From: an uncultured Eubacteriales bacterium
Lineage (GTDB): Bacteria; Bacillota; Clostridia; Oscillospirales; Acutalibacteraceae
DNA: 64,000 nt
Assembly: GCA_948537335.1 (NCBI GenBank)
Contig: CAOUJG010000005.1
Location: 2,580 to 66,579, forward strand
Reading direction: 5' to 3'
Part shown: positions 8,570 through 38,238 of the stretch, in pieces
Layout: each line of letters opens with the position of its first letter
Numbering within the stretch: the stretch's first letter is position 1
Made by a program: the position numbers and the translations under genes
Notes under the pieces: generated by a model
Seen by the model: only the letters and a program-made list of their open reading frames with translations
Told to the model about the DNA's origin: nothing
The model's database searches: none

Positions 8570-10819
8570 TTGGCATCAAAGAAAAAAGATTTTTCAAAGG
8601 ATATAAATGGGAATGGTGGCCGGACGCACGGAGTAATTAACGGTGCGGGCGAAATTGTGGAGCAAAAAATTGCGAGTACGCTGGAGAAAAACTATATGCC
8701 GTACGCGATGAGTGTGATTTTGTCGCGGGCCATCCCGCAGATAGATGGCTTTAAGCCGTCGCATCGTAAGTTGCTCTACACAATGTACAAGATGGGGCTT
8801 TTGGGCTCGGCCAGGACTAAGTCGGCGAATATAGTGGGGCAAACGATGAAGCTCAACCCGCACGGAGACAGCGCGATTTATGATACCATGGTGCGTCTGA
8901 GTCGCGGCTATGAGGCCTTGTTGCACCCGTATGTGGATTCTAAGGGAAATTTTGGTAAATTTTATTCTAGAGACATGATGTGCGCAGCTTCGCGATACAC
9001 CGAGGCGCGGCTTGACGACATCTGTGAGGAGCTTTTTAAGGATATCGACAAGGACACCGTCGATTTTGTGGACAACTATGATAACACGCAAAAGGAGCCG
9101 ACCCTGTTGCCGGCGAGCTTTCCGTCGATCTTGGTGAATGCGAATACGGGGATAGCCGTAGGCATGGCAAGCTCGATTTGTCCCTTCAATCTGCGAGAGG
9201 TCTGTAAAGCGACGACAATGCTGATTAAAGACCCGGAAGCGGATATAAGCAAAGTGCTTCTGGCGCCCGACTTTACCGGCGGAGGCAGCATAATTTACGA
9301 CGAAAAGGCCATGGCCGAGATTTACAAAACGGGACGCGGCAGCATAAAGGTGCGCGCGCGGTATACTTACGACAAAGCGCAGAACTGCATTGACATTAGC
9401 AGCATTCCGCCCACCACAACCTCAGAAGCGATCATCGAAAAGATCATTGATCTTGTGAAAAAGGGCAGCGTGAGGGAAATCTCGGACATCCGCGATGAAA
9501 CGGGAATAGAAGGCCTGAAGATAACGATCGACCTAAAACGGGGAACAGACGCAGAAAAACTCATGCAAAAGCTGTACAGAATGACGCCGCTTGAGGATTC
9601 GTTCTCGTGCAACTTCAATGTGCTGATAAACGCCACGCCACGAGTGCTGGGAGTAAGAGCGCTACTTTGCGAGTGGATTGCCTTTAGAACGGAGTGCGTG
9701 CGCCGCAGAACGCAGTTTGATCTTCATAAGCAGAAAAGCAAGATGCACCTACTGGCGGGCCTCAAGAAGATTCTTGTGGACATAGACAAGGCGATAAAAA
9801 TCATCCGAAACACGAAGGAAGAATCGATGGTGGTGCCCAACTTGATGCAGGGTTTCGACATCGACGAGGTGCAGGCAGACTACGTGGCGGAGATAAAGCT
9901 GCGGCACTTGAACCGAGAGTACATCCTGAAGCGGACGGACGAAATCGAGCGGCTAAAGGAGCTAATCAAAGATTTAGAGTCGATTTTGAACGACGACAAA
10001 AAAATAAAGGAAATAATCGCGCAAGAATTAAAAAATATTGCAGAAAAGTATGGCAAACCGAGGAAAACTATGCTAATATACAAGGAGGACGTGGCCGAGG
10101 CTGACGTGGAGGAAGAAGTGCCGGATTATCCAGTGCACCTGTTCTTTACGAAGCACCAGTATTTCAAGAAGATCACGCCGCAGTCCTTGCGGATGAGCAG
10201 CGATCAGAAGCTAAAAGACGGGGACGAAATCCTGCAGACCATCGAAGCGAACAATAATTTTGATTTGCTATTTTTTACGGATAGGCAGCAGGTCTATAAG
10301 GCAAAGGTTGCGGATTTTGCGGATTCGAAGGCGAGCGTGCTTGGAGAATTTGTGCCGGCCAAGCTAGAGATGGAGCCGGATGAATCGGCCTTGTGCATGA
10401 TTGCAACACAGAATTATGCAGGATGCGTGCTGTTCTTTTTTGAAAACGGCAAGGTCGCCAAGGTGACACTCGAGGCCTACAAAACCAAGACGAACAGAAA
10501 AAAGCTGGTCAAGGCTTATTCGGATAAATCGCGCGTTGTGGAGATTAAGTACTTGGGCGAGGAAAAAGATTTTGTGGTGACTTCGTCGGCAGGGCGGGCG
10601 TTGGTCTTTAACACGAGCATGCTTAACGCTAAGACAACGAAGTCGACGCAGGGCGTCTCGGTAATGAGCCTGAGAAAGGGGCACCGCGTTGTTGCCGCAA
10701 AGGAGCTTGACCCAAAGAGCTTAACGGACGTTGCGAGGTATTATCGGCCAAAGAACTTACCCGCCGCGGGAACGGTGCCGAATTCAAGTGTGGACGGGCC
10801 AGAGCAGCTGACACTGTGA
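8570..10819 (+). CDS. Type IIA DNA topoisomerase subunit A (ParC/GyrA-like)
   Basis: 'IDGFKPSHRKLLY' and the active-site region 'AASRYTEARL'. The TTG start lies 7 nt after GGAGGTG. At 749 aa it is shorter than typical GyrA. Confidence 0.9.
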   Translation: MASKKKDFSKDINGNGGRTHGVINGAGEIVEQKIASTLEKNYMPYAMSVILSRAIPQIDGFKPSHRKLLYTMYKMGLLGSARTKSANIVGQTMKLNPHGDSAIYDTMVRLSRGYEALLHPYVDSKGNFGKFYSRDMMCAASRYTEARLDDICEELFKDIDKDTVDFVDNYDNTQKEPTLLPASFPSILVNANTGIAVGMASSICPFNLREVCKATTMLIKDPEADISKVLLAPDFTGGGSIIYDEKAMAEIYKTGRGSIKVRARYTYDKAQNCIDISSIPPTTTSEAIIEKIIDLVKKGSVREISDIRDETGIEGLKITIDLKRGTDAEKLMQKLYRMTPLEDSFSCNFNVLINATPRVLGVRALLCEWIAFRTECVRRRTQFDLHKQKSKMHLLAGLKKILVDIDKAIKIIRNTKEESMVVPNLMQGFDIDEVQADYVAEIKLRHLNREYILKRTDEIERLKELIKDLESILNDDKKIKEIIAQELKNIAEKYGKPRKTMLIYKEDVAEADVEEEVPDYPVHLFFTKHQYFKKITPQSLRMSSDQKLKDGDEILQTIEANNNFDLLFFTDRQQVYKAKVADFADSKASVLGEFVPAKLEMEPDESALCMIATQNYAGCVLFFFENGKVAKVTLEAYKTKTNRKKLVKAYSDKSRVVEIKYLGEEKDFVVTSSAGRALVFNTSMLNAKTTKSTQGVSVMSLRKGHRVVAAKELDPKSLTDVARYYRPKNLPAAGTVPNSSVDGPEQLTL

Positions 10820-32363: not shown

Positions 32364-33842
32364 TTGGAAGAAAGAAATATTTATCAAGATATAGCGCAGC
32401 GCACAAACGGAGACATCTATATAGGCGTTGTGGGGCCAGTTCGAAGCGGCAAATCGACCTTTATAAAGCGGTTCATGGATAACCTCGTGATTCCGAACAT
32501 GGATAGCAGCTACAAAAAAGAGCGCGCAGTGGATGAATTGCCACAGTCCGCGGCGGGCAGAACTATCATGACAACGGAGCCAAAGTTTATTCCCGAAACC
32601 GCAGTAGAGGTGCACATCGGCGACAACGCAAGCTTTAAAGTAAGGCTAATAGACTGCGTGGGGTATATAGTCCCGAGCTCTTTGGGGTACATAGAAAACG
32701 AACAACCCAGAATGGTGATGACGCCGTGGTTTAAGGAGCCCGTGCCGTTCAATATGGCAGCAGAACTGGGCACAAAAAAGGTGATAACCGATCACTCAAC
32801 AATAGGCTTAGTGATAACAACCGACGCCAGCATAAGCGACATCCCGCGCGAAGAGTACGAAGAAACCGAAGAGCGCGTCATAAATGAGCTAAAAGAAATA
32901 AAAAAGCCATTCATAGTGCTGCTAAACAGCATGTATCCGGCCGCCAACGAGACGCGCGAGCTAGCAAAATCGTTAACAGAAAAATACAAAGTGCCCGTGC
33001 TGCCGGTAAATTGCCTGGAGCTAAACGAAAACGAGATAAAACGCATCTTGGCGCAGATTTTGTTTGAGTTCCCAGTAAAAGAAATAAAAATAAACATGCC
33101 AAAATGGCTGACAAATCTAGAAAAAAAGCATTGGCTAAGAGAATCGGTCTACTCGACAATAGAGCAGTTCTCTAAGGACATCAGAAAGATCCGCGAAATA
33201 AATTATATAACCGACAACATAACCTCGTGCGATTATATCGACGCCGCCAAGCCAACAGCAATAGACCTCGGGGTGGGCAACGCAAAAATCGCAGTAGAAA
33301 TAAGCCCGAACCTGTTTTATAAGGTGCTGGGAGAAAAAACTGGACTAGAGCTTGAGGACGAGGGAGATCTCTTAGACTGCATGCTGTCGCTTTCTGCGAT
33401 AAAAGAAAAATACAATAAAATTAGTCAGGCCTATAACGACGTGCAAGAGACCGGCTACGGCATAGTCATGCCATCCACAGAGGAACTTTCATTAGATGAG
33501 CCAGAAATAATAAAGCAGGGCGGCAAATACGGCATAAAACTAAAAGCCTCTGCGCAGTCCATACACATGATGAAAACCCGCATAACCACAGAAGTCACGC
33601 CGATTGTAGGCTCGGAGCAGCAGTCCGAAGAGCTTGTGAACTATCTTTTAAAGGAGTTTGAGGAAAATCCCGGCAAAATATGGGAGTCGAATATATTTGG
33701 CAAGTCGCTCTACGAGCTGGTGAACGAAGGGCTGCACAATAAGCTTTATAGGATGCCAAACGACGCCAGAACAAAAATAAAAGAAACGATCGAAAGAATA
33801 ATAAACGATGGATGTAACGGACTAATCTGCATAATTCTTTAG
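32364..33842 (+). CDS. spoIVA: Stage IV sporulation protein A
   Basis: 'IYIGVVGPVRSGKSTFIKRFM' Walker A, a 492-aa length, and the conserved C-terminus '...NDGCNGLICIIL'. Confidence 0.95.
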   Translation: MEERNIYQDIAQRTNGDIYIGVVGPVRSGKSTFIKRFMDNLVIPNMDSSYKKERAVDELPQSAAGRTIMTTEPKFIPETAVEVHIGDNASFKVRLIDCVGYIVPSSLGYIENEQPRMVMTPWFKEPVPFNMAAELGTKKVITDHSTIGLVITTDASISDIPREEYEETEERVINELKEIKKPFIVLLNSMYPAANETRELAKSLTEKYKVPVLPVNCLELNENEIKRILAQILFEFPVKEIKINMPKWLTNLEKKHWLRESVYSTIEQFSKDIRKIREINYITDNITSCDYIDAAKPTAIDLGVGNAKIAVEISPNLFYKVLGEKTGLELEDEGDLLDCMLSLSAIKEKYNKISQAYNDVQETGYGIVMPSTEELSLDEPEIIKQGGKYGIKLKASAQSIHMMKTRITTEVTPIVGSEQQSEELVNYLLKEFEENPGKIWESNIFGKSLYELVNEGLHNKLYRMPNDARTKIKETIERIINDGCNGLICIIL

Positions 33843-33856
33843 CTATACAAGGGGCG

Positions 33857-34675
33857 GTGGGCATATTGGTAATAGTTTTTAGGCGCAAGTATATCATTCT
33901 TTCCACGTTTATCTGCTTTGTGGTGGCTTCTGTGGTGATCGGCACCAGTCTGTCGGTGAGCAATAAGTCTGTGGTAACGTCGAAGTCCGTGAATAATAAC
34001 TGGGGCCTAAGCTTTAGCGAAAACGGCAAAGCGCCAACAGGCAACGCGAGTCGCGAATTTTTGAAGCAGTACGACGCCTATTATGTGGGGAACCCCGAAG
34101 AAAAAAAGATATACCTGACGTTTGATGCAGGCTTTGAAAACGGCTATACACCAACTATTTTGGACGTCCTAAAGAAGAATGACGTAAAAGCGGCGTTCTT
34201 TTTGGTTGGCAACTACATAAAGACGAGCCCAGATTTAGTGAAGCGGATGGAGGCAGAGGGCCACATAGTTGGGAATCATACCTTTTCGCACCCGGATATG
34301 TCGAAGATTTCGGACATGGAGTCGTTTAAGAAGGAGATCTCGAAGCTGGAGGAGATGTACAAAGAAACAACCGGCAAGGATATGCTAAAATTTTACAGAC
34401 CACCGCAGGGCAAGTATAACGAAGAAAACTTAAAGCATGCGCACGAGCTGGGCTACAAGACGATATTTTGGAGCTTGGCGTACGTAGACTGGCTAACCGA
34501 CAAGCAGCCAAGCAAAGAACATGCCTTCGAGAAGCTTGCGAGGATACATCCGGGAGCCATAGTGCTGCTGCATAGCACGTCCAAAACAAACTCGGAAATA
34601 TTAGACGAATTAGTAAATAAATGGAAATCAGAAGGCTACACATTCGCACCGCTAACGGAACTTAGTGATAATTGA
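33857..34675 (+). CDS. pdaA: Polysaccharide deacetylase, PdaA-like (delta-lactam biosynthesis)
   Basis: NodB motifs 'LTFDAGFENGYT' and 'GNHTFSHPDM', plus an N-terminal TM/signal. The exact start is uncertain. Confidence 0.8.
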   Translation: MGILVIVFRRKYIILSTFICFVVASVVIGTSLSVSNKSVVTSKSVNNNWGLSFSENGKAPTGNASREFLKQYDAYYVGNPEEKKIYLTFDAGFENGYTPTILDVLKKNDVKAAFFLVGNYIKTSPDLVKRMEAEGHIVGNHTFSHPDMSKISDMESFKKEISKLEEMYKETTGKDMLKFYRPPQGKYNEENLKHAHELGYKTIFWSLAYVDWLTDKQPSKEHAFEKLARIHPGAIVLLHSTSKTNSEILDELVNKWKSEGYTFAPLTELSDN

Positions 34676-34711
34676 CTAAAAAAATCGAAAAAACTTTAGA
34701 ATATATTACAG

Positions 34712-34740
34712 TTGACGAAATAAAAACAATGTAATATAAT
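34712..34740 (+). promoter_or_regulatory. Near-consensus sigma-A promoter upstream of the GG-leader peptide gene
   Basis: TTGACG (34712-34717), a 17-nt spacer, then TATAAT (34735-34740). Confidence 0.65.
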
Positions 34741-34957
34741 CAAAGATACCGCAATAAATTTTGATTTTAAGTAAAAAAATAGCACGGAATCCTATACGTT
34801 CGCTGCTCAGCGCCCATTTAAAAATCTTATATTGATACCAAAAGTATTCATAAAAATTGCTTTAGAAGGTGATTTTGTGAGTGCTTTTTTGTTTAAAACG
34901 CGTTAAAAAGGAAAGTTTATTATTAGGTTTAATTTTTTTGAATAGGAGTGTTGCAAA

Positions 34958-35182
34958 ATGAGCGAAGAGTTAAAAAGAGAACGGTTAGAATTAAATGATT
35001 TGTCCTCGGTGGCAGGCGGAGTGGCTGTTGACGTTAACTCCGAAACAAGATGCGTAAAACCAGAGGGTAGCTTTAAAATTTTGGATTATAAAGAAGAAGA
35101 ATGGCGCCGGGATGGGGCTCCATCTAAGTGCAAGTATTGCTGGCATTTAAAGTTTGACAATGGCTTTTTTTGCGACGTTTGA
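34958..35182 (+). CDS. Double-glycine-leader peptide precursor (bacteriocin/pheromone/RiPP-like), 74 aa
   Basis: Leader MSEELKRERLELNDLSSVAGG, then a 53-aa core with 4 Cys (one CxxC). GGAG lies 9 nt upstream and a strong terminator lies downstream. Confidence 0.6.
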   Translation: MSEELKRERLELNDLSSVAGGVAVDVNSETRCVKPEGSFKILDYKEEEWRRDGAPSKCKYCWHLKFDNGFFCDV

Positions 35183-35249
35183 TTTAAGATCAAAGAAGGA
35201 ATCGAAAGGTTAGAAGGTTATTGATTAAAAGTAAAAAATATATAAAGTG

Positions 35250-35292
35250 CCCCAAACTCTTGCACAAAACAAAGAGATTGGGGTTTTCTTTT
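35250..35292 (+). terminator. Rho-independent terminator after the peptide gene
   Basis: CCCCAAACTCTT...AAGAGATTGGGG 12-bp stem with one mismatch, followed by TTTTCTTTT. Confidence 0.8.
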
Positions 35293-35314
35293 GTCTTTTG
35301 GCAGATTGGCGCGC

Positions 35315-35343
35315 TTGTAATTTTAAAATTTTTGTGGTAAAAT
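35315..35343 (+). promoter_or_regulatory. Promoter of the corA leader
   Basis: TTGTAA (35315-35320), a 17-nt spacer, then an extended -10 TGgTAAAAT (-10 at 35338-35343). Confidence 0.55.
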
Positions 35344-35401
35344 CTAAAATATATGTTTGTGCGGCGGTTGAAATTACGTTTAAATTGAAGGTGGTGGAGA
35401 T

Positions 35402-35503
35402 ATGGTTCCTGGTGACCCTAACCCTTGCGGGCGATTTGATGAGAAAAAATATTTTTTATTAGGGAAACATATCGATTCTGCCGGGCGTTTTATGTTCCCC
35501 TAG
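35402..35503 (+). CDS. Candidate leader peptide ORF (33 aa) in the corA 5' leader
   Basis: AAGGTGG lies 7 nt before the ATG. Product: MVPGDPNPCGRFDEKKYFLLGKHIDSAGRFMFP. The stop TAG lies inside the hairpin that pairs with the corA SD. Confidence 0.3.
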   Translation: MVPGDPNPCGRFDEKKYFLLGKHIDSAGRFMFP

Positions 35504-35516
35504 TAATTTTAGGGGG
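35461..35516 (+). promoter_or_regulatory. Alternative hairpins controlling access to the corA Shine-Dalgarno sequence
   Basis: Sequestor: CCCCTA (35497-35502) pairs with TAGGGG (35510-35515), which contains the SD. Alternative: AGGGAAACAT (35461-35470) pairs with ATGTTCCCCT (35492-35501). Confidence 0.45.
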
Positions 35517-35528
35517 ATTGGATAGCGC

Positions 35529-36461
35529 ATGGTGACTTATTATAAGAACGTGAAGGGCAAGCTTACGGAGGTTAAGGACTATGAGCCGGAGTGCTGGATA
35601 AATTGCACGGCGCCCGACGACGACGAGAAGGACAAGCTGATTGACGAGTTTGGCATTGACCCGGACTTTTTGAAGTCGGCCTTGGACGAAGAGGAGTCCT
35701 CGCATATAGACTGCGAAAACGGCAATACGCTTATTATTGTGGATATTCCTGTGGCACGAAAAAACGAGAAAAGCATCACTTACCATACCACTCCGCTTGG
35801 CATAATCATCACGGACACGAACGTTATTACCCTCTGCCTGCGCGAGAACGTCATTATTGGCGAGTTTGCTGAAGGTGTGGTGCGGAACATCTACCCGCAG
35901 TATAAAACGCAGTTCGTCTTGCATATCATTTTGCGGGCGACGATTAAGTACTTGCAATACTTGAAGCAGATTGATAAAATCAGCGACCACGCGGAGCACG
36001 AGCTAAGAAAATCGATGAAGAACAAGGAGCTCATCCAGCTTTTGGAAATAGAGAAGTCGTTGGTCTACTTTTCGTCATCGTTAAAGGCAAACGAGGCGAC
36101 GCTTGAGAAAATAGCGCGGGGCCGGCTGATAAAGCTGTTTGACGAAGACCGCGACCTTTTGGACGACGTGCTGATAGAAGTCAAGCAGGCCATAGAGATG
36201 TCGAACATACATATGAACATTTTGGCCAGCACGATGGACGTTTTCGCATCGATAATCTCGAACAACTTGAATATAGTGATGAAAGTGCTCGCGTCGATAA
36301 CTTTGCTGTCGTCGATACCAACGATTATTTCTGGCATCTACGGCATGAACGTTGAATATTTGCCGTTTACGCAAAGACAGTATTGGTGGTTCCCGGTGAT
36401 CCTCACCGGCGCGATAGTCGCGGTCGTCGCGTACATATTAAAGAAGAAGGATATGCTGTGA
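35529..36461 (+). CDS. corA: Magnesium/cobalt transporter CorA
   Basis: 'GIYGMNVEYLPF' GMN motif followed by two C-terminal TM helices. Confidence 0.9.
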   Translation: MVTYYKNVKGKLTEVKDYEPECWINCTAPDDDEKDKLIDEFGIDPDFLKSALDEEESSHIDCENGNTLIIVDIPVARKNEKSITYHTTPLGIIITDTNVITLCLRENVIIGEFAEGVVRNIYPQYKTQFVLHIILRATIKYLQYLKQIDKISDHAEHELRKSMKNKELIQLLEIEKSLVYFSSSLKANEATLEKIARGRLIKLFDEDRDLLDDVLIEVKQAIEMSNIHMNILASTMDVFASIISNNLNIVMKVLASITLLSSIPTIISGIYGMNVEYLPFTQRQYWWFPVILTGAIVAVVAYILKKKDML

Positions 36462-36560: not shown

Positions 36561-37349
36561 CTAATTAATATCCCTCTGCTTGAAGGTGTAGATCCCGACC
36601 ACGGTTGCAATTGCGATATAAACAAGCAGCACGATTACGCCTCGAACAAGTTGATCCGAGTCTCCAAAAGCACCGAAAATAGTATATGGTTCAACAGTGA
36701 ATTCTAGCTTAAGAACGTCTTTAAGAAATTTGTCTATTAACGTAGCTGCGCTGCTCTCCAAGAAGACAAAAGCCAGGAATATTGCAAGCGAGGAGCCCAA
36801 AGAGCGGAAGAACATGGCTAAAAATATAGCGATGGAGAGGTATGCAAGCAACTGAAGCGAATTTTTTCCAACGGTTTCCCAAAATGAATTATCGATGTTA
36901 AAAAATTCAGGAAGTCGGTTGTTTATCATTATTTGCGCGGTGATAAAGGAAGTCGCAAACGACAACAATATGTTTACAATGGCCACAACCAAGGCCGTTA
37001 TGAATTTAGAAATATATATAAACTCACGCCGATAGCCCTTAGATGCGATGTTTTTAATAGTTCCGTAGCTGAATTCAGAAACGGCAAACATAACAGCAAA
37101 AATGCCGATCAAGAAGGTGCACTGCGGGATAAACTGAGGAATAAACTTAAAAAAAGGGAACACATTTTGAAGAATGATGTCAGAAAACTCGCTGGGCTCA
37201 TTTAGAGCGGTAACGTAAATGGAAAACATCAAAAAAGACGAAAACACAACAAACAAGATGTTAAGAACAGAAATGACCCAAAAAGAAATTGAGCGAAAAG
37301 CCTTATAAAGGTCGGTTTTTAAAACATTAAGCATTTTTGTCGCCTCCAA
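36561..37349 (-). CDS. ABC-2 type transporter permease
   Basis: A 262-aa polytopic membrane protein whose start overlaps the end of the ATPase gene. Confidence 0.75.
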   Translation of the reverse strand: MEATKMLNVLKTDLYKAFRSISFWVISVLNILFVVFSSFLMFSIYVTALNEPSEFSDIILQNVFPFFKFIPQFIPQCTFLIGIFAVMFAVSEFSYGTIKNIASKGYRREFIYISKFITALVVAIVNILLSFATSFITAQIMINNRLPEFFNIDNSFWETVGKNSLQLLAYLSIAIFLAMFFRSLGSSLAIFLAFVFLESSAATLIDKFLKDVLKLEFTVEPYTIFGAFGDSDQLVRGVIVLLVYIAIATVVGIYTFKQRDIN

Positions 37350-38238
37350 TCACCTTCATAAAATATTCTTCCAAGTCAACGGACTTCTTCGAAATCAAGT
37401 CAACAACCACGTCATTCTTGGCCAAAGCGCTAGTCACAACACCCGGAGCATCGATAAAATCGTAAACCTCCAAAGTATTCTCGTTAATAACGGCGAATTT
37501 ATCGGTATCTAACGTGCTTTTCAAAACCTCAGCCGCGCGGTTAGCATCGTTCACCTTGACAATAAGGCTGGACTGGCAGCGAGTCGCGAGCTCATCCCCA
37601 GTGAATTCATCGATAAGAACGCCATCGTTAATTATCCCGTACCGAGTGGCCAGCTTAGACAGCTCGCCCAAAATGTGGCTAGAAATAAGTATAGTCAGGC
37701 CTTTTTCCTGGTTAATCCGCTTAAGCATGTTGCGAACCTCGATGATTCCTTCGGGGTCAAGGCCGTTTGTAGGTTCATCCAAAATGAGAAATTCAGGGTC
37801 ACCCATCAGAGTCATAGCGATGCCAAGGCGTTGCTTCATTCCGAGTGAAAATTTCTTAACCTTTTTTCTGCCAACGTCGCTAAGGCCAACGAGCTTCAAA
37901 GTCTCGTCTATTATGGATTTATCCTTAGAACCAAGCAGCTTCCACTGAATAAGCATGTTCTGCCGGGCGCTCAGATTGGGGACAAAAGCCGGAGCCTCAA
38001 TAACAGTGCCGATCTTGTGGCGAGCCTTGTTTAGTCGCTTGCTGCCAAAAAGCTCAATAGAGCCGCTAGTGGGGCGCGAAAGGCCAACCAACATTTTAAT
38101 AAGAGTCGTCTTACCGGCGCCATTTCGGCCAATAAAGCCATATATGTCGCCCTTTTTGATAGTCATATTCACAGACGATACAGCCGTTTTTTTTGCAAAT
38201 TTTTTGGTAATATCAACAGTCTGCAAAACATTTTCCAT
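37327..38238 (-). CDS. ABC transporter ATP-binding protein
   Basis: Walker A 'GRNGAGKTT', signature 'FSLGMKQR' and Walker B 'FLILDEP'. Confidence 0.9.
   Translation of the reverse strand: MENVLQTVDITKKFAKKTAVSSVNMTIKKGDIYGFIGRNGAGKTTLIKMLVGLSRPTSGSIELFGSKRLNKARHKIGTVIEAPAFVPNLSARQNMLIQWKLLGSKDKSIIDETLKLVGLSDVGRKKVKKFSLGMKQRLGIAMTLMGDPEFLILDEPTNGLDPEGIIEVRNMLKRINQEKGLTILISSHILGELSKLATRYGIINDGVLIDEFTGDELATRCQSSLIVKVNDANRAAEVLKSTLDTDKFAVINENTLEVYDFIDAPGVVTSALAKNDVVVDLISKKSVDLEEYFMKVIGGDKNA

What the first reader, a model, noticed from the sequence alone, without database searches (positions are those of the whole stretch)
34712..35292. Orphan, independently transcribed double-glycine-leader peptide with a 4-Cys core between pdaA and corA
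The 74-aa ORF (34958-35182) begins MSEELKRERLELNDLSSVAGG. This fits the double-glycine secretion-leader pattern: GG at -2/-1, hydrophobic V at -4, L at -7 and L at -12, and an acidic residue at -8. Cleavage would release a 53-aa near-neutral core, VAVDVNSETRCVKPEGSFKILDYKEEEWRRDGAPSKCKYCWHLKFDNGFFCDV, with four Cys including a CxxC and an aromatic C-terminus. The gene has its own near-consensus promoter (TTGACG-N17-TATAAT), a leader of roughly 210 nt, a good SD and a strong terminator. It sits in visibly AT-rich spacers between two housekeeping genes. No C39-peptidase ABC exporter, modification enzyme or obvious immunity gene is adjacent. The only transporter nearby is an ABC-2 pair about 1.4 kb away on the other strand. 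I do not recognise the core as a known bacteriocin, SCIFF, lanthipeptide or sactipeptide family.
Basis: partly seen in the sequence, partly recalled or inferred. Interest (0 to 1): 0.7.

Follow-up and report, generated by a model that had tools for sequence, protein, structure and literature searches.

The report
Conserved double-glycine peptide gene beside pdaA
This is a real, strongly conserved small gene for a 74-residue peptide with a secretion-type "double-glycine" leader and a compact four-cysteine core. It is not a stray gene: in a narrow group of spore-forming gut Clostridia it almost always sits directly behind the spore-cortex gene pdaA, which points to a new peptide family of unknown role.

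Summary

The ORF is a true gene (dN/dS 0.04-0.2). It founds a small, unannotated family of about 21 clusters among 5.8 billion, with no Pfam, NCBIfam, PDB or literature match.
- The GG site is kept in 20 of 21 members.
- Three Cys are invariant and the fourth is kept in 20 of 21.
- AlphaFold leaves the N-terminus disordered and folds the core alone with confidence (pLDDT 87).

New findings:
- The gene lies directly downstream of pdaA (TIGR02884) in nearly every lineage, while the other flanking genes differ.
- The promoter is conserved.
- The leader carries a conserved hairpin plus U-run.
- No C39 exporter lies within 10 kb in any lineage or in the window. One relative clade has a PCAT with nine GG-leader peptides (same L-x-x-V-S/A-G-G ending) 14 kb away.

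Most likely this is a precursor cleaved and exported in trans. It is vertically inherited, hydrophilic and pdaA-linked, so it is probably not a classical bacteriocin. Cleavage, export and function remain untested. An intracellular metal-binding small protein is the main rival.

The parts
33857..34675 (+). pdaA (delta-lactam-biosynthetic de-N-acetylase), the conserved upstream partner. It starts 14 nt after spoIVA.
   Evidence: NCBIfam TIGR02884 equivalog, 309.1 bits against a cut-off of 298. It lies immediately upstream of the peptide gene in nearly every lineage.
34703..34737 (.). A 7-bp inverted repeat, ATATTAC (34703-34709) and GTAATAT (34731-34737), bracketing the -35 box and spacer. It could be an operator, or an UP element together with the region just upstream of the -10 box.
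   Evidence: Read from the sequence. It is kept in L008 and L009 and, with one mismatch, in L016, L019 and L029. No function was tested.
34712..34740 (+). Sigma-A-type promoter, TTGACG-N17-TATAAT.
   Evidence: The scan matched 11 of 12 positions. TTGAC-N17-TATAAT is present in 10 of the 11 lineages. L025 has TATATT, and L035 also carries the promoter.
34747..34957 (+). AT-rich 5' leader of about 211 nt (the TSS is inferred, not mapped).
   Evidence: The distance from the -10 box to the ATG is 141-230 nt in all lineages. There is no Rfam match.
34844..34890 (+). Conserved leader hairpin (stem 34844-34884) followed by a U-run (34885-34890). It looks like an attenuator or terminator, and it is also the first terminator-like structure downstream of pdaA.
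   Evidence: It is present in the minimum-free-energy fold. All 12 pairs form in 103 of 103 cells across 9 lineages, against 42-61% when the partners are slid. Covariation is weak: 56 of 500 shuffles score as high.
34944..34948 (+). Shine-Dalgarno sequence AGGAG, 9 nt before the ATG.
   Evidence: Read from the sequence. AGGAG or AGGGG is conserved in the alignment.
34958..35020 (+). Coding region of the 21-residue double-glycine-type leader, MSEELKRERLELNDLSSVAGG.
   Evidence: Family alignment. The PSSM score is in the top 0.02% of background 15-mers. AF2 pLDDT is below 50.
35021..35182 (+). Coding region of the 53-residue core, plus the stop codon. It carries Cys32, Cys58, Cys61 and Cys72, the CxxCWHLK motif and the NGF(Y/F)C motif.
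   Evidence: Conserved Cys. dN/dS is 0.04-0.2. The core-only AF2 model has pLDDT 86.6.
35250..35292 (+). Intrinsic terminator of the peptide gene: stem CCCCAAACTCTT / AAGAGATTGGGG, then TTTTCTTTT.
   Evidence: Fold, z = -2.3.

Best explanation
The locus is a self-contained transcription unit for the precursor of a small processed protein.

A near-consensus housekeeping-type promoter with an AT-rich upstream region drives a long leader. That leader holds a conserved hairpin plus U-run. I infer that the hairpin throttles read-through and also ends the spoIVA-pdaA transcript.

The 74-aa product has a 21-residue amphipathic double-glycine leader. I infer that a C39-peptidase ABC exporter (PCAT) encoded elsewhere in the genome recognises it, cuts it after Gly21 and exports it.

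The released 53-residue core is a hydrophilic, near-neutral, compact mini-domain: a short strand, a helix, a CxxC knuckle and a beta-hairpin. It is held together by four conserved cysteines, through either a bound metal or disulfides.

The gene is inherited vertically, is under strong purifying selection and stays attached to pdaA while everything else around it changes. Its role is therefore more likely physiological than a strain-specific weapon. Candidates are spore-envelope or cortex biology, or cell-cell signalling around sporulation.

Shown here: the gene is real, the family exists, the leader and Cys are conserved, the promoter and hairpin are conserved, the pdaA linkage holds, and no adjacent machinery is present. 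Inferred: cleavage, export, metal or disulfide chemistry, and biological role.
For: - Purifying selection: dN/dS is 0.04-0.2 over six comparisons.
- Family of about 21 clusters, with GG in at least 90% of members. C32, C61, C72, F39 and L64 are invariant, and C58 is kept in 20 of 21.
- The leader matches the double-glycine pattern at -1, -2, -4, -7, -8 and -12. It scores in the top 0.02% of window 15-mers on a PSSM built from recalled bona fide leaders.
- The N-terminal residues 1-27 are disordered in the full-length model. The core alone folds at pLDDT 86.6.
- There is no hydrophobic segment or signal peptide. Core GRAVY is -0.5 to -1.0.
- The promoter TTGAC-N17-TATAAT is conserved in 10 of 11 lineages. 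The leader hairpin is paired in 100% of cells.
- pdaA lies directly upstream in nearly every lineage, with unrelated genes further upstream and downstream.
- In two sister lineages that carry a family member, an active-site PCAT and nine GG-leader peptides ending L-x-x-V-S/A-G-G lie 14.4 kb away. The family leader ends the same way.
Against: - No PCAT, C39 domain or ABC_membrane transporter lies within 10 kb in the other lineages or in the 64-kb window. The window organism's own genome could not be searched.
- One member (P0014, locus L035) has SS instead of GG and a shorter N-terminus, yet keeps the promoter and the pdaA linkage.
- The PSSM scores (-5 to 16) are far below those of the training leaders (24-41).
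- A CxxC knuckle followed by an aromatic NG hairpin is typical of intracellular zinc fingers. The only PDB sequence hit is a viral zinc finger, at chance level (E = 0.66).
- Cys counts in the cores are 4, 5, 6 or 7, so an all-disulfide model does not hold for every member.
- Four of the five core-only AF2 models were of lower confidence.
Confidence: 0.45

Rival explanations
1. An intracellular small metal-binding protein that is never cleaved. The four Cys bind Zn or Fe. The N-terminal amphipathic segment is a flexible interaction tail or degron, and GG is merely a hinge. It would act in sporulation, for example as an adaptor or regulator tied to cortex and coat assembly. That would be analogous in logic to the small B. 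subtilis proteins CmpA, CsfB or Fin.
For: - The core is hydrophilic and has no export signal other than the GG motif.
- It has a CxxC knuckle plus beta-hairpin architecture.
- There is a weak local match to the Mengovirus leader zinc finger, 2BAI.
- It is constantly linked to pdaA, and often to sipL-spoIVA.
- No exporter is adjacent in most lineages.
- One member lacks GG.
Against: - The hydrophobic spacing plus GG is kept in 20 of 21 members, which a mere hinge would not require.
- The leader ending is identical to that of PCAT-array peptides in a relative.
- The family has only one CxxC, not the two found in classical zinc ribbons.
- The 2BAI hit is at chance level.
- The promoter is of the housekeeping type, not a recognisable sporulation-sigma type.
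Confidence: 0.25
2. A classical unmodified class II bacteriocin or GG-type pheromone, exported by a PCAT. Its immunity or sensor genes would be encoded elsewhere.
For: - The leader is of the GG type.
- The gene has its own strong promoter.
- An ABC-2 pair lies 1.4 kb away, and its ATPase is most similar to lantibiotic-protection ATPases (TIGR03740, 238 bits, below the 309.75 cut-off).
- A PCAT is present in a relative.
Against: - The core is hydrophilic, near-neutral and non-amphipathic.
- There is no adjacent immunity gene, histidine kinase or response regulator in any lineage.
- Each locus examined holds a single copy. Peptide divergence broadly rises with PdaA divergence, which suggests vertical inheritance rather than patchy, mobile distribution.
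- The ABC-2 pair is not linked in L012, L013, L016 or L022.
Confidence: 0.15
3. A RiPP precursor whose conserved Cys are cross-linked by a remote radical-SAM or other maturase (sacti- or ranthipeptide-like thioethers) before GG cleavage.
For: - It has a leader-core architecture with conserved Cys.
- GG leaders are common in RiPPs.
- The odd and even Cys counts argue against simple disulfide pairing.
Against: - No radical-SAM, LanM/LanBC, YcaO or other maturase gene was listed in the gene tables of the annotated loci or among the window and locus ORFs scanned.
- There is no hit to the SCIFF, CLI_3235 or other precursor models.
- The core is predicted to fold by itself into a defined domain.
Confidence: 0.1
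4. The main product of the strong promoter is a short non-coding RNA of about 140 nt that ends at the leader hairpin. The peptide would be made only by occasional read-through, or from pdaA read-through during sporulation, making this a dual-function locus.
For: - The hairpin plus U-run is conserved inside the leader.
- There is no terminator between pdaA and the promoter.
- The promoter is conserved.
Against: - The first ~100 nt of the leader are poorly conserved.
- The region has no Rfam match.
- The whole-leader fold is not unusual (z = -0.99).
- The ORF itself is under strong purifying selection.
- The L022/L023 subgroup lacks this hairpin.
Confidence: 0.05

Closest known systems
Double-glycine (GG) leader peptides exported by peptidase-C39 ABC transporters (PCAT/AMS), such as colicin V (CvaC), class II bacteriocins, and the ComC/BlpC pheromones
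   Same: - The leader is short (17-25 aa in most members) and ends in GG.
- Hydrophobic residues sit at -4, -7 and -12, and an acidic residue at -8.
- The window leader ending, LELNDLSSVAGG, closely resembles the CvaC leader ending, LTLNELDSVSGG. The CvaC sequence is recalled from memory and was used in the PSSM.
- There is no Sec signal.
   Different: - No PCAT, immunity gene or two-component system is adjacent.
- The core is hydrophilic, near-neutral and folded, with four conserved Cys.
- The gene is vertically inherited and fixed next to pdaA.
Nif11-type and other GG-leader peptides in the PCAT array of the relative genome GCA_944380725.1 (L030)
   Same: The leader ending is the same, L-x-x-V-S/A-G-G. 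One array member, MERKEIKRERCISDDNIEEVAGG, even shares the KRER...VAGG layout. They are in the same genome and the same 15-kb neighbourhood as family member P0016.
   Different: - The family has no Nif11 domain and an unrelated core.
- It is not in the array or operon, and it lies on the opposite strand.
- The array was not found in the window or in other lineages' loci.
Small zinc-knuckle domains, such as the Mengovirus leader-protein zinc finger (PDB 2BAI)
   Same: There is a local motif match, C-x-x-C-x-x-L-x-x-x-N-G-F-Y. The predicted architecture is a knuckle plus beta-hairpin.
   Different: E = 0.66 is chance level. The ligand set differs (CHCC against four Cys with a single CxxC). There is no Foldseek match to any PDB or BFVD structure.
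Small sporulation proteins of Bacillus that link coat and cortex or regulate sigma factors (CmpA, SpoVM, CsfB, Fin)
   Same: They are small and, in some cases, Cys-rich. The genomic association is with coat and cortex morphogenesis genes (sipL-spoIVA-pdaA). CmpA's role is taken from PMC10730256.
   Different: No sequence similarity was detected. Those proteins are driven by sporulation sigma factors and are not GG-processed. This resemblance is only a lead, partly from memory.

Membership tests
Double-glycine leader peptides (PCAT substrates) | Gly-Gly (or GA/GS) at -2/-1 of a 14-30 aa N-terminal leader | tested here: met
   G20-G21 in the window. GG is kept in 20 of 21 family members, and most leaders are 17-26 aa. 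One member has SS.
Double-glycine leader peptides (PCAT substrates) | Conserved hydrophobic residues at -4, -7 and -12, and an acidic or polar residue at -8 | tested here: met
   V18, L15, L10 and D14 in the window. The same columns are L/I/V/M across the family. The PSSM score is in the top 0.02% of background (the training leaders were recalled from memory).
Double-glycine leader peptides (PCAT substrates) | A cognate C39-peptidase ABC transporter encoded next to the precursor | tested here: not met
   No C39 or ABC_membrane gene was found in the window or in the loci held for the other lineages, up to 10 kb on each side where the contig allowed. The nearest is 14.4 kb away, in one clade only.
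Double-glycine leader peptides (PCAT substrates) | A PCAT present somewhere in the same genome | tested here: inconclusive
   Present in the genomes carrying P0016-type members.
Double-glycine leader peptides (PCAT substrates) | Actual cleavage after GG, and export | not testable with these tools
   Needs mass spectrometry or an in vitro C39 assay.
Class II bacteriocins | A cationic and/or amphipathic-hydrophobic mature peptide with an adjacent immunity gene | tested here: not met
   Core net charge is -3 to +6 (window -1) and GRAVY is -0.5 to -1.0. No conserved downstream small gene was seen.
SCIFF, CLI_3235, Nif11, NHLP or other curated RiPP precursor families | A match to the family HMM | tested here: not met
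   No NCBIfam or Pfam hit even at E <= 10.
Sactipeptides, ranthipeptides and lanthipeptides | A radical-SAM or Lan maturase in the gene cluster | tested here: not met
   No such Pfam family appears in the gene tables of the annotated loci or among the window and locus ORFs scanned.
Zinc-ribbon or zinc-finger mini-proteins | Four metal ligands, classically two CxxC knuckles, and bound metal | tested here: inconclusive
   Four conserved Cys but only one CxxC. The predicted fold is a knuckle plus hairpin. There is no significant PDB sequence or fold match. Metal binding cannot be tested here.
Known cis-regulatory RNAs (riboswitch, T-box and others) for the 5' leader | A match to an Rfam covariance model | tested here: not met
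   Only two chance-level hits were found, both outside the leader.

The most novel reading that the evidence does not exclude
The peptide is a developmental factor rather than a weapon. It would be a GG-leader-processed, metal-binding four-Cys mini-protein that is exported, perhaps into the forespore intermembrane space or onto the spore surface, and that works with PdaA in spore-cortex maturation or germination. It might act as a metal donor or a modulator of the metal-dependent CE4 deacetylase. Its expression would be gated by a leader hairpin that couples it to the spoIVA-pdaA transcript. That would be the first double-glycine peptide with a role in endospore morphogenesis.
Probability: 0.12. 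Interest if true: 0.75.

Novelty: new variant of a known kind. Interest (0 to 1): 0.5.

Why it matters
Double-glycine leaders are normally read as a flag for bacteriocins or pheromones that sit beside their exporter. This family keeps the flag but has left that context. It is a core, vertically inherited gene, welded to the spore-cortex gene pdaA in uncultured gut Clostridia, and its folded four-Cys core matches nothing described.

If the peptide is exported, it shows that PCATs serve dispersed 'housekeeping' substrates, and it points to an unknown extracellular or spore-associated factor. If it is not exported, it shows that genome miners can be misled by GG-like N-termini on intracellular metal-binding proteins.

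Either outcome is useful, and the question can be tested with one mass-spectrometry experiment and one knockout.

Tried and rejected
Searches that found nothing:
- Pfam and NCBIfam searches of the peptide at E <= 10 gave nothing.
- Rfam over 33500-36000 gave only chance hits outside the leader.
- A PDB profile search gave one chance-level hit.
- Foldseek of both models against PDB and BFVD gave nothing.
- A literature search for the YCWHLK motif gave nothing. The IIBacFinder paper has no supplements held as text.

Hits set aside:
- The full-length AF2 model was of low confidence (pLDDT 55).
- The large repeat proteins P0003, P0008, P0011 and P0013 from the exhaustive search are low-complexity or repeat artefacts, not relatives.
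- P0002 (62 aa) is a frameshifted copy on a 2x-coverage contig, not a variant.

Tool refusals:
It was repeated with A4.
It was repeated without that row.

Ideas considered and dropped:
- A Spo0A box overlapping the -35 box (TGACGAA) is present in only 3-4 lineages.
- A sigma-E-like promoter (TTATATT-N15-CATAAAAA) inside the hairpin's 5' arm is not conserved in L012, and its conservation cannot be separated from that of the stem.
- Leader uORFs have start codons and lengths that are not conserved.
- The ABC-2 pair as a dedicated exporter or immunity system: its linkage is not conserved.
- The UCH-domain protein in L022 as a GG protease: it occurs in one lineage only and is absent from the window.

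Organism names could not be obtained.

Full report
**Observation**

The ORF at 34958-35182 (+) encodes MSEELKRERLELNDLSSVAGG / VAVDVNSETRCVKPEGSFKILDYKEEEWRRDGAPSKCKYCWHLKFDNGFFCDV.
- The promoter scan returns TTGACG-N17-TATAAT at 34712-34740 as the best site, matching 11 of 12 positions.
- An AGGAG Shine-Dalgarno site lies 9 nt before the ATG.
- The automatic terminator scan found nothing, because it allows only loops of 3-8 nt. Folding shows a clean stem at 35250-35283 with a 10-nt loop, followed by TTTTCTTTT.
- The spacers have GC 0.28-0.33, against 0.44-0.50 in the genes.
- Upstream is a pdaA equivalog (TIGR02884, above its cut-off), itself 14 nt behind spoIVA (TIGR02836) and sipL. Downstream is a corA-family gene, then an ABC-2 pair on the other strand.

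**Is it a gene?**

Yes. Near-identical copies occur in four MAG species representatives titled 'uncultured Eubacteriales' and in several metagenome contigs, in the same synteny. Between lineages, synonymous changes far outnumber non-synonymous ones: dN/dS is 0.04-0.05 for close pairs and 0.09-0.20 for distant pairs. A 62-aa 'variant' (P0002) is a frameshift on a 2x-coverage contig.

**The family**

The word-indexed search found only two proteins. The exhaustive phmmer search and a profile search raised this to about 21 clusters of 64-85 aa, at 32-65% identity to the window protein. None carries a Pfam domain or a source name. The four long proteins in the phmmer list are repeat artefacts.

In the 21-member alignment, C32, C61, C72, F39 and L64 are invariant. 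G20, G21, K34, C58, W62 and G69 are at least 90% conserved. The consensus is KEKLxLxxLxxVSGG-xxVxVxxxxxCxKPGxFKxLExKxxEWxxxGCPxKCKYCWHLKxxNGFYCDx. Many members add a fifth to seventh Cys (CCKP, GCP), so the counts are 4, 5, 6 or 7.

**Leader**

The conserved columns of the N-terminal part are exactly those that define double-glycine leaders: GG at -2/-1, V/I at -4, L/M/I at -7 and L/I at -12.

I built a position matrix from 17 bona fide leaders recalled from memory. On that matrix the window leader scores in the top 0.02% of all 15-mers from window ORF fragments, and it ranks first of 120 GG-ending 15-mers. For 18 of the 21 members the best-scoring site falls at the GG. The scores (-5 to 16) are well below those of the training set (24-41), which is inflated by self-scoring.

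AlphaFold leaves residues 1-27 below pLDDT 50 in the full-length model. The core alone reaches pLDDT 86.6 in the best model, although the other four models were weaker.

One divergent member (P0014) has SS in place of GG and a shorter N-terminus. That is a real counter-example, though it is a singleton contig.

**Core**

The predicted core is a short strand, a helix (residues 43-51 of the precursor), a CxxC knuckle and a beta-hairpin with an NG turn that ends at Cys72.
- It is hydrophilic (GRAVY -0.5 to -1.0) and near-neutral, with no hydrophobic stretch.
- It has no significant sequence or fold relative in the PDB or BFVD.
- The only PDB sequence hit is the Mengovirus leader zinc finger (CxxC...L...NGFY), at E = 0.66, which is chance level. 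It does illustrate that the motif looks like a metal knuckle.
- This is not the composition of a membrane-active class II bacteriocin.

**Context: the main new result**

In every lineage for which flanking DNA could be read, with one exception, the gene sits on the same strand 170-310 nt downstream of a PdaA orthologue.
- The upstream deacetylases scanned with NCBIfam score 290-309 bits on TIGR02884 against a cut-off of 298 (one of the five, L025, falls just below it).
- The genes beyond differ. Downstream there is corA, an ODP flavoprotein, cotJA-cotJB, a SpoU methylase, a glycosyltransferase or mecA.
- Upstream of pdaA there is sipL-spoIVA, ACPS, a GH25 lysozyme or a carbohydrate kinase.
- The exception, L019, has accA upstream but still keeps the last codons of pdaA in front of the promoter.
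- Peptide identity broadly falls as PdaA identity falls: 95/95, 62/77, 57/86, 46/82, 43/71 and 39/65%. Each locus examined holds a single copy. Together these suggest vertical inheritance of a pair, with the peptide evolving faster.

**Regulatory anatomy**

TTGAC-N17-TATAAT is conserved in 10 of the 11 lineages compared (L025 has TATATT). It is preceded by an AT-rich block, and the distance from the -10 box to the ATG is always 141-230 nt.

Most of the leader is poorly conserved and has no Rfam match. One element stands out in nine lineages: a 12-bp stem (34844-34884 in the window) followed by a U-run. It is paired in 103 of 103 cells, against 42-61% when the partners are slid. The changes are mostly wobble transitions, so covariation statistics are weak, with 56 of 500 shuffles scoring as high.

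This hairpin is also the first terminator-like structure after pdaA. I infer that it ends the spoIVA-pdaA transcript and attenuates transcripts from the peptide's own promoter. That physical overlap would help explain why the two genes stay together. The L022/L023 subgroup lacks this hairpin and instead has a stem that sequesters the SD.

**Exporter**

No ORF of 500 aa or more in the window carries a C39 domain (SipL and FtsW/FHA were identified). So the gene is never clustered with a PCAT.

In the genome that carries family member P0016 (GCA_944380725.1), and in a sister lineage, a 719-aa PCAT with the catalytic LECGAASL motif lies 14.4 kb from the pdaA-peptide pair. With it are a second ABC protein and a tandem array of nine GG-leader peptides, six of them Nif11-type. 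About ten housekeeping genes separate the two.

The array leaders end in L-x-x-V-S/A-G-G, as the family's leaders do. One of them (MERKEIKRERCISDDNIEEVAGG) even shares the KRER...VAGG layout of the window leader. This makes processing in trans feasible in at least that clade. It does not show that processing happens, and the array is absent from the window.

**Interpretation**

The best-supported reading (confidence 0.45) is a precursor cleaved after Gly21 and exported in trans. This yields a folded four-Cys mini-protein whose role is physiological and somehow tied to pdaA and sporulation.

The rivals are:
- an uncleaved intracellular metal-binding small protein (0.25);
- a classical bacteriocin or pheromone (0.15);
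- a RiPP precursor with a remote maturase (0.10);
- a locus whose main product is the short leader RNA (0.05).

The decisive experiments are a genome-wide C39 census in peptide-bearing genomes, mass spectrometry for the Val22-Val74 species, an in vitro C39 assay, metal analysis and a knockout scored for cortex and germination phenotypes.

**Novelty and score**

The leader is a known kind. The core family, its fixed pairing with pdaA, and its separation from any exporter are not described in the libraries or papers I could search. I rate it a new variant of a known kind, with interest 0.5. It is a solid, testable new family with an unexpected genomic association, but its mechanism is unproven and its taxonomic range is narrow.

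Noticed in passing
window ~33555-33559 (inside spoIVA 32364-33842); L001 1103-3018, L002 320-2235, L007 1-800: In sister strains (96-97% DNA identity), homology to the window begins only at spoIVA codon ~398. Directly upstream sits a 547-aa serine recombinase (Resolvase + Recombinase domains) reading into the SpoIVA_C fragment. 451-aa SpoIVA variants share the 90% cluster. This looks like a skin-like, sporulation-excised intervening element inserted in spoIVA. The window strain has the intact gene.
   Followed up: partly
L030 2905-11101 (GCA_944380725.1) and L032-L034: An apparent operon of a PCAT (C39 + ABC, 719 aa), a second ABC protein (727 aa), a tandem array of nine GG-leader peptides (six Nif11-type, 67-115 aa, with unrelated cores) and a DUF7005 protein. 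It is a multi-substrate GG-peptide cluster in an uncultured gut Clostridium.
   Followed up: partly
L022 5517-7100: A 527-aa bacterial protein with a eukaryote-type ubiquitin C-terminal hydrolase (UCH/USP, PF00443) domain (E = 1.7e-24). It lies 3 kb upstream of pdaA in one lineage and has no homologue in the window.
   Followed up: partly
window 34703-34709 and 34731-34737: A 7-bp inverted repeat, ATATTAC / GTAATAT, brackets the -35 box and spacer of the peptide promoter. It is kept, exactly or with one mismatch, in five other lineages. It may be a repressor operator or simply an UP-element plus the region just upstream of the -10 box.
   Followed up: no
window 34908-34947: A conserved SD-like AAAAAGGAAAG is followed by a very short ORF that ends at the main SD. 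Its start codon (ATT, ATG or GTG) and length vary between lineages. It may be a standby ribosome site or a regulatory mini-uORF.
   Followed up: no
window 36561-38238 (-): An ABC-2 permease (DUF2705/ABC2_membrane_4) lies with an ATPase whose best NCBIfam match is the lantibiotic-protection ATPase subfamily (TIGR03740, below its cut-off). The pair is linked to the peptide only in the window's own clade, and is 7 kb away in L009.
   Followed up: partly
L007 2255-2684 (between window 35293 and 35314): One sister MAG has an insertion of about 430 bp between the peptide terminator and corA. Its content was not examined.
   Followed up: no
window 35105-35107 (codon 50 of the peptide): Among otherwise near-identical strains, residue 50 is R (window), L (L001) or C (L007). 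This is the only position seen to vary among these near-identical copies.
   Followed up: no
L022/L023, the ~135-nt leader upstream of the peptide start (L022 ~9840-9973): The divergent subgroup lacks the leader hairpin of the main group. It instead has a CTCCC...GGGAG stem that includes the Shine-Dalgarno sequence, which suggests translational rather than transcriptional control.
   Followed up: no
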